DNA of 64,000 nucleotides, taken from the NCBI RefSeq assembly GCF_048403405.1, contig NZ_CP183129.1. One strand, given 5' to 3'. How positions within the stretch are numbered: the first letter of the stretch is position 1; each line of letters starts with the position of its first letter. A program made the position numbers. Of the stretch, positions 49,501 to 52,500 are shown one piece after another. This DNA is from Escherichia coli (GTDB taxonomy: Bacteria > Pseudomonadota > Gammaproteobacteria > Enterobacterales > Enterobacteriaceae).

Positions 49501-52500
49501 TCAGTGGGTATAGATTATTATTAGTCAACCAGTGAGCATAAATAAGCACAAGAAGTTGCGTATTATGAATAATGATTCAATGCCATGCTGGTGGTTTTTT
49601 GTGGTGAAAATATTTGTACCTTTTTGTTTACGGATGAAAAATAAACAGCCATATTATTTTGGTTAATTATTGTGTTAGTTTTAACACTCGGTGATGTTTT
49701 TTGTTATAGTGCATTAATTTTTAAATAAAAAAATTCATACATTCATGGATGTAATATATACAAGATACAATGTTAATTTTAGATAAAATATTAATTGCAT
49801 TGGATACTTTTTAAATATGCCGATGTTGAGCTTAATTTTATGAGGGAATGCTATTTCGGGCTGTAGGACTTTTTTATAATCATCTTATAGGGCTCTTTAT
49901 ATTTACAGGAGGGTTTTGAACGATAGTTACATAACGAAGGTTGTTTGTATGCGTTTACAAGCGATTAATTAGATTAGGTGAATTTTAATAAATTAATCTA
50001 TAATCATACAGCAACTATATGAATTATATTATTGACTAAATTTAATTCTTTCATCATAGTTGACATGGCTATTTTATATCAATAGAGGTGATTTATGCAA
50101 AACAGAAAATTTTTAACGCATCATGAAATTAATTTACTACTTCAATCTGTAAAACAAAAGAGTTGCTCTTCACGCGATGTTTGCATGATTTTATTGGCTT
50201 ATTTTCATGGTCTGCGTGTTAGTGAGCTCTTATCTCTGCAGTTGTCGGATTTAGAACTAACTACAGAAAAAATATATATTCAACGGATAAAAAATGGATT
50301 CAGTACAGTCCATCCACTTCAAAAGGAAGAGGTGATTGCAATAACAAACTGGCTGAATGAAAGGAATTCATTAAATGTTAAACATTTCAATGATAACCCG
50401 TGGTTATTTGTTTCCCGAACAGGAAAACCATTATCGAGACAACGATTTTATAACATAGTTTCTGCTGCGGGTAAAAATGCAGGTTTAAATATTAAAGTTC
50501 ATCCACATATGTTACGCCATGCATGTGGTTATTCACTAGCAGATAATGGTGTGGATACCCGTCTTATTCAGGACTATCTCGGGCATCGTAATATCAGGCA
50601 TACGGTAATTTATACTGCTTCTAATTCAATGAGATTTGAAAAAATGTGGGGGAGAGGTGACGCAAAAAAGCAACATTTTGACCCAAAATGTAAACCCAAT
50701 CTTTGTTTAGAAATTCTCGTATAGAAAAACATTTTTTTCTATAAAAAACATTAAATTTACTGATTTAGATCAATATGTGACGTCAATCTACACATAAAGA
50801 GGTAGGTTTGTCTTCTTTTTAATCTTTGGCGTATAAAGCCAAAATGTAAATAATAATCAAAATTATATTCTGAATTAAAATAAATACGCAGGTTTTTTAC
50901 CTGCGTTTTGTGCTATTTATAGTTAATTAAATTGATGTTGTCAAAATGGGTCATTTTGTAAACCTGTGCCTCAAGGTTTGTCTCCCCCCGGTGTGCAAAG
51001 CAAAAGGAAATTGGGAAAGGGGATAACAGGAAATTGATTGCATGGTTTTGATTACGACGACAAAAAATATTTTTTTAATTCAAGCAATTAAGAGTATGCG
51101 TTGGCGGGGTTTTTCGTACGTGAAAGTCATCGCTGTGGACGACTATTCTTCTCTGATTCGTGATTTTGGCACATCTTGCTTTCGGGATGAGCAATCGTTG
51201 TTGTTACCTGTATTCCCTGATAATGATTCTACTACCTGTATACGCTCACTGTATTTCATTCACCAATGGCTAAAAAGCCAGCCTGTCAATATTCCGTGCC
51301 TGGCATGGGGGGATAATGGTGTAGTTAGTAATAAAGGCATACCTTTCATACCGTGGAAATTAACAGCAGAGCAATTTTGTTTCTATATAGATAAATTTAT
51401 CAATGGCTGGAGGTGCAAAAAAAATATTCGCGCGAATCATAAAGTTTCTTTTTTAGAACGACAATTATCCCCGAGGGAGAAAAGTATCTTTATATATACC
51501 AAGGAAGGAAAAGATATTGCATGGATCTCGAACACCTTGGGTATATCCAGTAAGACTGTGTGGACGCATCGTCGTAGAGCTATGGATAAACTCGGGGTAA
51601 AACGTTTACATCAATTTATAAATATTCCGCGTTCCCTTATTAGTGAAAATATTCAATTTTAATGTACGTTCAAGAGTATTAGTGTTATGAATAAAATATA
51701 TAAAGTCATTTGGAACCATACAACCCAAAAATGGGATGTTGTTTCAGAATTGACGAGTTGTAGAAAAAAATGTAAATCAACTCGCTTAGGAATTGCTTTA
51801 TCAGCAATGGTTCTGGGGGGCGCTATTGCAATTAATTGCAATAGCGCAATGGCAGATGTCATATTGTCACCAGACTGGCGTCCGGGTACGAATAAATCGG
51901 GTGTTGGGGCTGCAACAGTAAGTGGTAAAACCGAATACATCACTGGTCCAAATGTCGTCCAGTCTGGTGGGTCAGGTCTTATCTGGATGACTGTAGAACA
52001 GGCAATTTTAAATGGCTACACCACTGGAGATAATTTATCCGGATTGATTTACGTCAATACCGGAGAAAAAACAAAAACCATTACAGTGAAGGATGAGGTT
52101 ACTGGCGCTTCTCAAACACTTCAAGTGTTTGATACTGACTCTTTCTCACAACGCGATGCGGGGACTGGGGGAAATGAAACCATTCCTGGTTTTAGTGGCA
52201 CTGCGGATTTTTTCAATGCGACACGTTTTGTAACAGCCAATAATGGCGGTACAGCTATTTTGGATGTGGGTTCACCAGCAATCGGTAATTTTTTTAAAAA
52301 TACACAGCTTGCTGTAGCTGATGGAGAAGGTTCCTCTGTTGTATGGAACTCGGTCAATGATTTTTATTTTCAGCCTGGTGCAACCATGCAGGGGGGCGGC
52401 GTTACTCAAAAAATCATTGACTCAATGAAATATGCTGGAACAATTACTGATTGGGCGGGAAAAGTACACCATATTAACTCTCTTGATGATTTAAAGCAAT

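What the first reader, a model, noticed from the sequence alone, without database searches (positions are those of the whole stretch)
50674..50958. Candidate invertible promoter switch between a FimB/E-like recombinase and a LuxR-regulator/autotransporter pair, apparently in the OFF orientation
A roughly 261-bp segment is bounded by inverted repeats caaaatg (50684-50690) and cattttg (50952-50958), nested with a 9-bp pair cattttgac (50674-50682) and gtcaaaatg (50940-50948). The left repeat lies inside the last codons of the adjacent recombinase ORF, so inversion would rewrite the recombinase C-terminus. Inside the segment the minus strand carries a near-consensus sigma70 promoter (TTGACA, 17-nt spacer, TATAAA; 50944-50916) that currently fires toward the recombinase gene, while a plus-strand terminator-like hairpin (50887-50910) currently faces the LuxR gene. 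Inversion would point the promoter at the LuxR regulator (51042) and the 2637-aa autotransporter (51687). This matches what I recall of the ipuS switch reported in uropathogenic E. coli; here the state can be read directly from the sequence.
Basis: partly seen in the sequence, partly recalled or inferred. Interest (0 to 1): 0.75.

Follow-up and report, generated by a model that had tools for sequence, protein, structure and literature searches.

The report
Known ipuS phase switch, OFF orientation
This is the already published ipuS invertible promoter switch of uropathogenic E. coli, which turns the UpaE adhesin on and off; it sits here in its OFF orientation, so the finding is correct but not new.

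Summary
The repeats, promoter-like site and hairpin are all at the stated coordinates. The locus is ipuB–ipuA–ipuS–ipuR–upaE of E. coli, described experimentally in CFT073 in 2018 and 2019. RefSeq already annotates it as "DNA invertase IpuA" and "phase-variable autotransporter adhesin UpaE".

Evidence for identity with published ipuS:
- The 7-bp repeats and their flanks are base-for-base identical to CFT073.
- The ipuA–ipuR spacer is the published 317 bp.
- In-silico inversion shortens IpuA by the published 11 residues.
- The published PacI assay gives the 186-bp OFF fragment.

The OFF call is therefore right. All 236 complete E. coli genomes with the locus, and all 23 metagenome contigs, are also OFF.

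- The short repeats alone are not beyond chance. A 7-bp pair occurs in 98% of shuffles.
- The near-consensus TTGACA-17-TATAAA is probably not the working promoter. The published 5' RACE start lies at the other end of the element, inside the ipuA overlap, with hexamers matching only 4/6 each.

Novelty: already known. Interest is low.

The parts
48778..49347 (-). ipuB, tyrosine-type DNA invertase (189 aa)
   Evidence: ORF. It matches the NCBIfam tyrosine-type DNA invertase family NF007370 at 204.9 bits. RefSeq names the identical-position gene ipuB in strain 4621 and CFT073. Motifs are R39, H132-x-x-R135 and Y167.
50095..50724 (+). ipuA, tyrosine-type DNA invertase, full-length 209-aa (OFF-state) form
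   Evidence: ORF. NF007370 scores 251.2 bits, above its cut-off of 221. RefSeq name is ipuA. R41, H138, R141 and Y173 all lie upstream of residue 198. Its last 41 bp lie inside the switch.
50673..50691 (.). Left recombination site region: local palindrome ACATTTTG-ACC-CAAAATGT that contains the left 7-bp repeat
   Evidence: Inverted repeat I23. It is identical in CFT073 and in 23 metagenome contigs.
50684..50690 (.). Left (ipuA-internal, 'distal') 7-bp inverted repeat CAAAATG, the crossover site
   Evidence: Sequence. Only this pair reproduces the published 11-aa truncation. The paper reports 7-bp repeats with the distal one inside ipuA. Sanger sequencing confirmed them independently.
50691..50951 (.). 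Invertible segment of ipuS (261 bp between the repeats; published as 260 bp), here in the OFF orientation
   Evidence: There are 6 SNPs and no indels against CFT073.
50713..50745 (-). Likely position of the published ipuS promoter. Two overlapping 4/6 + 4/6 candidates: TTTATA(50745-50740)-16-TATACG(50723-50718), or TAGAAA(50741-50736)-17-GAGAAT(50718-50713). Predicted starts are about 50711 or 50706, inside the ipuA coding overlap.
   Evidence: Hexamer scan. These are the only candidates that fit the paper's text: start inside full-length ipuA coding sequence, each hexamer 4 of 6. This is an inference, because Fig. 4B could not be read. The region is nearly invariant across loci.
50886..50906 (.). 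G+C-rich hairpin that is terminator-like on both strands (tail TTTGTGCTAT on +, ATTTATTTTA on -)
   Evidence: dG -13 to -15 kcal/mol, z -3.7 and -5.4. It is conserved in CFT073. One stem SNP was seen in 1 of 23 metagenome loci. The two ipuS papers read (PMC6083910, PMC6458436) do not describe it: 'terminator' occurs 0 times in PMC6083910, and no terminator is mentioned in the ipuS passages of PMC6458436.
50923..50930 (.). Single PacI site (TTAATTAA) used in the published orientation assay
   Evidence: The distance from the cut to the end of the published reverse primer (51092-51113) is 186 bp, the published OFF fragment size.
50916..50944 (-). It is allele-specific and probably not the main ipuR-upaE promoter.
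   Evidence: Its -10 is TACAAA in CFT073 and in 13 metagenome loci, and TGTAAA in 3 others. It lies immediately upstream of the hairpin.
50952..50958 (.). Right (ipuR-proximal) 7-bp inverted repeat CATTTTG
51042..51662 (+). ipuR, 206-aa regulator with a C-terminal GerE/LuxR-type helix-turn-helix (residues 141-193). The N-terminal 140 residues match no Pfam domain.
   Evidence: It lies 317 bp after the ipuA stop, exactly as published.
51687..59600 (+). upaE, 2637-aa AIDA-I-type autotransporter adhesin, intact here
   Evidence: The autotransporter beta-barrel family TIGR01414 scores 396.6 bits. RefSeq product name is 'phase-variable autotransporter adhesin UpaE'.

Best explanation
This is the ipuS phase-variation switch of extraintestinal pathogenic E. 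coli, caught in its OFF orientation.

Shown in published experiments on CFT073:
- Fim-family tyrosine recombinases exchange strands within the 7-bp repeats CAAAATG (50684-50690) and CATTTTG (50952-50958) and flip the segment between them. The enzymes are IpuA and IpuB, encoded next door, plus FimE, FimX and, weakly, FimB.
- Flipping to ON turns on ipuR and upaE. UpaE is a surface adhesin that promotes biofilm formation, binding to extracellular matrix proteins and kidney colonisation.

Follows directly from the sequence:
- In OFF, IpuA is made full length (209 aa).
- In ON, the left repeat is followed by ACC..., which creates a TGA and gives a 198-aa IpuA. The paper shows this truncated form is still active.

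Inferred here:
- In OFF, the element's promoter sits at the ipuA end on the minus strand and points away from ipuR. Flipping carries it to within about 20 bp of the right repeat, about 106-111 nt upstream of the ipuR start codon, where it drives ipuR-upaE.
- The two-way hairpin at 50886-50906 (50736-50756 after inversion) terminates ipuA transcription in either orientation. Expression of ipuR-upaE would then depend only on the direction of the internal promoter.
For: Identity with the published switch:
- 236 complete E. coli genomes match at 95% identity or more (203 of them at 99% or more) and are annotated ipuA / HTH regulator / phase-variable autotransporter adhesin UpaE.
- The CFT073 locus (L001) has no differences in 50655-50774 or 50920-51058. 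That span includes both repeats and their flanks. There are only 6 SNPs inside the element.
- The spacer is 317 bp, the repeats are 7 bp, the segment is about 260 bp, and the distal repeat lies inside ipuA, all as published.
- In-silico inversion gives the published 11-aa truncation.
- The published PacI assay gives 186 bp here, the OFF size.

Recombinases: both are in the tyrosine-type DNA invertase family and carry the R-H-R-Y residues.

Experimental proof in CFT073:
- Inversion, 5' RACE and phenotypes are reported in PMC6083910.
- PMC6458436 gives independent confirmation. ipuR rose about 1,600-fold and upaE about 33-fold when IpuB drove OFF-to-ON inversion.

Promoter placement: only two 4/6 + 4/6 candidates start inside the ipuA overlap, which matches the paper's wording.

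Hairpin.
Against: - No ON-orientation molecule was found in any public assembly. None of 236 complete genomes is ON, and none of 23 metagenome contigs is ON. No complete 198-aa IpuA gene exists in the gene-position index; only contig-end truncations turned up. Inversion in this particular strain is therefore inferred from sequence identity, not observed.
- The exact published promoter hexamers could not be read, because figures are not held. My placement is an inference.
- The terminator role of the hairpin is a prediction.
- The paper mentions a K-to-L (legend: K-to-F) change of the last residue. I do not reproduce it, because K198 is encoded wholly inside the repeat.
- My ON PacI fragment is 397 bp against the published 407 bp.
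Confidence: 0.96

Rival explanations
1. The working promoter is the near-consensus TTGACA-17-TATAAA next to the right repeat (50944-50916, minus strand). After inversion it would lie at 50698-50726 and transcribe across the whole element into ipuR-upaE.
For: It is the best sigma-70 match in the element (11/12), reached by only about 3% of shuffles. It points the right way for an OFF state and would face ipuR after inversion.
Against: - The published 5' RACE start is inside the ipuA coding overlap, with 4/6 + 4/6 hexamers. In CFT073 this site is 6/6 + 4/6 and lies at the opposite end.
- Its -10 varies between strains (TATAAA, TACAAA, TGTAAA).
- Its predicted start is 3 nt from a stable hairpin followed by a T-rich tail on the same strand, in both orientations.
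Confidence: 0.1
2. The element has no essential promoter of its own. It gates read-through from the ipuA promoter by presenting a terminator in one orientation only.
For: The authors raised this possibility before testing it. A terminator-like hairpin does exist in the element.
Against: - 5' RACE gave a start inside ipuS, and only in locked-ON cells.
- The hairpin is terminator-like on both strands, so it should block ipuA read-through in both orientations.
Confidence: 0.04
3. In this strain the element is a fixed, non-switching remnant that is effectively locked OFF. The short repeats would be incidental.
For: Every public assembly examined is OFF. 7-bp and 9-bp inverted repeats are expected by chance in this AT-rich DNA.
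Against: - Both repeats, their flanks and both recombinase genes are intact. The repeats are identical to those of CFT073, where switching is proven.
- A consensus assembly reports only the majority state. IpuA is reported as the most efficient ON-to-OFF enzyme, which predicts OFF dominance.
Confidence: 0.03

Closest known systems
ipuS of E. coli CFT073 (Battaglioli et al. 2018, mBio, PMC6083910; Russell et al. 2019, mSphere, PMC6458436)
   Same: Same locus and gene order (dsdC–ipuB–ipuA–ipuS–ipuR–upaE–OmpH-family gene). The 7-bp repeats and flanks are identical. It also shares the 317-bp spacer, the PacI site, the 11-aa IpuA truncation on inversion and the OFF reference orientation.
   Different: - 6 SNPs inside the element. 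One (50919 A here, G in CFT073) strengthens a secondary promoter-like -10.
- IpuA has R187 here and I187 in CFT073.
- upaE is an intact 2637-aa ORF here, whereas the CFT073 RefSeq record marks it frameshifted.
fimS, the type 1 fimbrial switch (FimB/FimE)
   Same: Same kind of device: a promoter-bearing segment of about 300 bp, flipped by Fim-family tyrosine recombinases at short inverted repeats, with a recombinase gene directly upstream. The recombinases cross-react between the two switches.
   Different: fimS has 9-bp repeats and drives fimbrial structural genes. It does not overlap the coding sequence of its recombinase, whereas ipuS overlaps ipuA. From my own knowledge: fimS is 314 bp, and its orientation affects fimE mRNA 3' processing.
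hyxS (FimX-controlled switch upstream of hyxR)
   Same: A Fim-family tyrosine recombinase switch that controls a LuxR-type regulator, and is island-encoded in extraintestinal pathogenic E. coli.
   Different: It has 16-bp repeats and is inverted only by FimX. No autotransporter lies downstream.

Membership tests
ipuS switch (ipuA/ipuB-linked promoter inversion element of E. coli) | Lies between ipuA and ipuR in a 317-bp spacer, with ipuB divergent upstream and upaE downstream | tested here: met
   ORF coordinates give 51042 - 50724 - 1 = 317 bp. RefSeq annotation of identical DNA agrees, as does CFT073 synteny and the paper's text.
ipuS switch (ipuA/ipuB-linked promoter inversion element of E. 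coli) | A pair of 7-bp inverted repeats bounding about 260 bp, with the distal repeat inside the ipuA coding sequence | tested here: met
   CAAAATG 50684-50690 and CATTTTG 50952-50958, with 261 bp between them. They are identical to CFT073.
ipuS switch (ipuA/ipuB-linked promoter inversion element of E. coli) | Inversion shortens IpuA by 11 residues without touching the R-H-R-Y active site | tested here: met
   In-silico inversion gives 209 aa going to 198 aa. R41, H138, R141 and Y173 are upstream of the change.
ipuS switch (ipuA/ipuB-linked promoter inversion element of E. coli) | OFF state defined by full-length IpuA and a 186-bp PacI fragment in the published assay | tested here: met
   From the PacI cut after 50927 to the primer end at 51113 is 186 bp.
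ipuS switch (ipuA/ipuB-linked promoter inversion element of E. coli) | Both orientations physically occur in a population | tested here: inconclusive
   0 of 236 complete genomes, 0 of 23 metagenome contigs and no complete 198-aa IpuA gene show the ON state. Consensus assemblies cannot reveal a minority state. Inversion was shown experimentally only in CFT073.
ipuS switch (ipuA/ipuB-linked promoter inversion element of E. coli) | Promoter and transcription start inside the element, in the part that overlaps full-length ipuA | tested here: inconclusive
   Two 4/6 + 4/6 candidates have starts at about 50706 and 50711, which fits the description. No transcript data are available here, and the published figure could not be read.
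Fim-family tyrosine-recombinase inversion switches (fimS, hyxS, ipuS) | An adjacent small (about 190-210 aa) tyrosine recombinase of the FimB/FimE family | tested here: met
   Against NCBIfam NF007370 and NF007371 'tyrosine-type DNA invertase', IpuA scores 251 and 238 bits, above both cut-offs. IpuB scores 205 and 186 bits, just below the cut-offs, but is named IpuB in RefSeq.
Serine-invertase switches (Hin/Gin/Cin type) | A serine recombinase with long, roughly 26-bp crossover sites and an enhancer | tested here: not met
   Both flanking enzymes are tyrosine recombinases, and the repeats are 7 bp. The description of serine-invertase sites is from my own knowledge.

The most novel reading that the evidence does not exclude
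The ipuS allele in this window (A at 50919) has a second, near-consensus promoter (TTGACA-17-TATAAA) beside the ipuR-proximal repeat. A two-way terminator hairpin follows it directly. The two ipuS papers read here (PMC6083910, PMC6458436) describe neither feature.

If both are functional, three things could follow:
- The strength or leakiness of the ON state would depend on the allele, through tandem promoters with partial terminator read-through.
- The OFF state would produce a short RNA antisense to the ipuA 3' region.
- The ipuA mRNA would acquire a different 3' end in each orientation, with the terminator 162 nt after the stop in OFF and about 44 nt in ON. That would feed back on recombinase levels, as orientation does for fimE at fimS.
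Probability: 0.15. Interest if true: 0.3.

Novelty: already known. Interest (0 to 1): 0.1.

Why it matters
ipuS is one of three cross-talking DNA inversion switches in uropathogenic E. coli. It controls an adhesin that gives a kidney-colonisation advantage in mice. Recognising it in a new genome tells you three things: the strain carries the ipuA/ipuB accessory recombinases, which also act on the type 1 fimbrial switch; UpaE is intact; and the sequenced population was mostly OFF. None of this is new biology.

The small additions here are:
- a census showing that every public assembly examined is OFF;
- a polymorphic secondary promoter-like site;
- an undescribed two-way terminator-like hairpin inside the element.

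Tried and rejected
1. Looking for naturally ON assemblies.
- A synthetic ON-orientation query found no genome with a contiguous match among the 236 that carry the locus.
- A 21-nt anchor at the ipuA end of the switch pulled 23 metagenome contigs, all OFF.
- Exact look-ups of the 198-aa truncated IpuA, for both the R187 and I187 alleles, returned only contigs that stop at or inside the left repeat. None had a real stop codon.

2. Contig breaks at the left repeat as a sign of mixed orientation. I considered this and rejected it.
- Contigs end just as often at codons 195, 197, 199 and 201.
- They also end as often at control codons 150 and 177, with 5 and 18 contigs.
- Two scaffolds with N-gaps across the element interior (L051, L055) resume in OFF-type sequence well inside the right repeat. 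This looks like poor coverage of AT-rich DNA rather than a clean inversion bubble.
- A 195-aa IpuA variant (L046-L050) is a +1 T in the T-run of CATTTTG, not an inversion product.

3. The nested 9-bp pair as the crossover. Rejected, because it would give a 5-aa rather than an 11-aa truncation.

4. The apparent 26-bp deficit in strain SCU-124. It is scattered homopolymer errors, not a deletion that locks the switch.

5. Reproducing the published PCR.
- The reverse primer and the OFF fragment match.
- The printed forward primer lies in dsdC and gives 2,928 bp in both CFT073 and the window, not the published 1,289 bp.
- The ON fragment computes to 397 bp, not 407 bp. These look like slips in the paper.

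6. Rfam at gathering thresholds finds no known RNA family in or near the element.
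Full report
**Observation**

- The 7-bp pair caaaatg (50684-50690) and cattttg (50952-50958) is present, as is the nested 9-bp pair cattttgac (50674-50682) and gtcaaaatg (50940-50948).
- Each end is itself a small palindrome: ACATTTTG-ACC-CAAAATGT on the left, and CAAAATG-GGT-CATTTTG on the right (repeats I23 and I9).
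- The recombinase ORF 50095-50724 runs across the left repeat.
- The minus strand carries TTGACA-17-TATAAA at 50944-50916.
- A G+C-rich hairpin sits at 50886-50906.

Taken alone, the repeats are not significant. In dinucleotide shuffles of this 32% G+C stretch, 98% contain a 7-bp inverted pair at 150-350 bp spacing and 31% contain a 9-bp pair. The 11/12 promoter match is reached by about 3% of shuffles of the element.

**What it is**

The region is the ipuB–ipuA–ipuS–ipuR–upaE locus of E. coli.
- A 1.7-kb query matched 236 of 5,426 complete E. coli genomes at 95% identity or more (203 of them at 99% or more). All are annotated 'tyrosine-type DNA invertase IpuA', 'helix-turn-helix transcriptional regulator' and 'phase-variable autotransporter adhesin UpaE'.
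- The window is 99.99% identical to strain 4621, a blood isolate from Houston, over 24.6 kb. Gene order there is dsdA-dsdX-dsdC-ipuB-ipuA-ipuR-upaE-OmpH family.
- Both recombinases fall in the NCBIfam tyrosine-type DNA invertase family and carry the R-H-R-Y residues.
- IpuR has a C-terminal GerE/LuxR-type helix-turn-helix and an N-terminal 140 residues with no recognised domain.
- UpaE has an autotransporter beta-barrel and AIDA-like passenger repeats.

**Comparison with the published switch**

Battaglioli et al. (2018, PMC6083910) found ipuS in CFT073 using an ipuR-lacZ fusion that gave red and white colonies. They describe:
- a 260-bp element bounded by 7-bp inverted repeats;
- the distal repeat inside ipuA;
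- a 317-bp ipuA–ipuR spacer;
- OFF defined as full-length IpuA, and ON as IpuA shortened by 11 residues;
- inversion by IpuA (full-length or truncated), IpuB, FimE and FimX;
- a transcription start inside the element, seen only in locked-ON cells.

Russell et al. (2019, PMC6458436) confirmed the 7-bp repeats by Sanger sequencing. They showed that FimB also inverts the element weakly. They measured increases of about 1,600-fold in ipuR and about 33-fold in upaE when IpuB drove the switch ON.

I fetched the CFT073 locus (L001) and aligned it.
- There are no differences in 50655-50774 or 50920-51058, which covers both repeats and flanks.
- There are no indels in the element, and six SNPs inside it.
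- The spacer here is exactly 317 bp.
- Inverting 50691-50951 in silico makes ...CAAAATG|ACC..., which creates TGA at 50689-50691 and a 198-aa IpuA ending HFDPK. That is 11 residues shorter, as published.
- Using the 9-bp pair instead would shorten IpuA by 5 residues, so the 9-bp pair is not the crossover.
- The element's single PacI site (50923-50930) lies 186 bp from the end of the published reverse primer (51092-51113). That is the published OFF fragment size.

So the identification as ipuS and the OFF call are both correct.

**Orientation in public data**

- A synthetic ON query found no contiguous match in any of the 236 genomes.
- Twenty-three metagenome contigs carrying the ipuA end of the switch are all OFF.
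- Exact look-ups of the 198-aa ON-state IpuA found only genes cut off by contig ends.
- I tested whether those contig ends mark an assembly fork at the repeat. They do not. Contigs end as often at neighbouring codons and at control codons 150 and 177.

OFF therefore dominates everywhere. This fits the report that IpuA is the most efficient ON-to-OFF enzyme. It also means inversion in this strain is inferred, not observed.

[quoted passage not shown] In the OFF state that is the left end of the element, on the minus strand.

A scan of the minus strand finds exactly two 4/6 + 4/6 candidates with predicted starts inside the ipuA overlap:
- TTTATA-16-TATACG, start about 50711;
- TAGAAA-17-GAGAAT, start about 50706.

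After inversion these lie about 20 bp inside the right repeat and give a 106-111-nt leader to ipuR. This placement is my inference, because the figure itself is not held.

- In CFT073 it is 6/6 + 4/6 (TACAAA), so it cannot be the published 4/6 + 4/6 promoter.
- Its -10 is the most polymorphic spot in the element. It reads TATAAA in the window and four metagenome loci, TACAAA in CFT073 and 13 loci, and TGTAAA in three.
- Its predicted start (50909) is 3 nt from the hairpin 50906-50886, which on that strand is followed by ATTTATTTTA (dG -13 kcal/mol, z -5.4). In either orientation its transcripts would meet this structure first.

**The hairpin**

It scores as terminator-like on both strands. The simplest reading is that it ends ipuA transcription in both orientations. 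It lies 162 nt after the stop codon in OFF and about 44 nt after the new stop codon in ON. That would insulate ipuR-upaE from the ipuA promoter, so that only the direction of the internal promoter matters. This is inference. The word 'terminator' does not occur in the 2018 paper.

**Verdict**

It is probably wrong on which promoter acts and on what the hairpin does. The system is already known, is experimentally characterised, and is even reflected in RefSeq product names. The only modest additions are the all-OFF census, the allele-specific strong promoter-like site and the two-way hairpin.

**Minor discrepancies with the paper**

- The printed forward primer lies in dsdC and gives 2,928 bp in CFT073, not 1,289 bp.
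- The ON PacI fragment computes to 397 bp, not 407 bp.
- The stated change of the terminal lysine is not reproduced, because that codon lies entirely within the repeat.

Noticed in passing
window 60616-64000: Homology to strain 4621 stops at 60630, which is 15 nt into the 3' end of tRNA-Arg(CCU) (argW). No tRNA is detected there in the window, although strain 4621 has one. Beyond that point lie phage-like ORFs, including an AlpA-like 66-aa gene at 60704-60904 (-). This looks like a prophage or integrative element inserted at argW, right next to the upaE island.
   Followed up: partly
It reads TATAAA here and in L003, L015, L017 and L021; TACAAA in CFT073 and 13 metagenome loci; and TGTAAA in L004, L006 and L016.
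   Followed up: yes
window 50984-50989: The C-run between the right repeat and ipuR varies in length or sequence in several metagenome loci (L004, L006, L016). It lies in the ipuR leader.
   Followed up: no
window 49499-49576: A dense patch of SNPs in the ipuB–ipuA intergenic region: 13 differences from CFT073 in about 75 bp, against about 1% elsewhere. Across 17 loci the variants fall into a few haplotypes, which suggests a recombination patch or a diverging regulatory site between the two divergent recombinase genes.
   Followed up: partly
L001 27816-35767 (CFT073 upaE) vs window 51687-59600: The CFT073 RefSeq record marks upaE as frameshifted, although the 2018 paper detects the protein. 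The window has an intact 2637-aa ORF.
   Followed up: no
L046-L050 (equivalent to window 50675-50679): Several public assemblies carry an extra T in the T-run of CATTTTG just outside the left repeat. This gives a 195-aa IpuA ending ...QHF and alters the outer half of the left site palindrome. It could be a real allele that affects recombinase binding, or a homopolymer sequencing error.
   Followed up: partly
PMC6083910 methods vs window 48186-48205 and 51092-51113: The published forward primer for the switch assay maps inside dsdC. It gives a 2,928-bp product in both CFT073 and the window, not the stated 1,289 bp. The stated ON fragment (407 bp) computes to 397 bp.
   Followed up: yes
window 51042-51461 (IpuR residues 1-140): The N-terminal two-thirds of IpuR match no Pfam or NCBIfam domain, neither an autoinducer-binding nor a receiver domain. 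'LuxR-type' applies only to its DNA-binding helix-turn-helix.
   Followed up: partly
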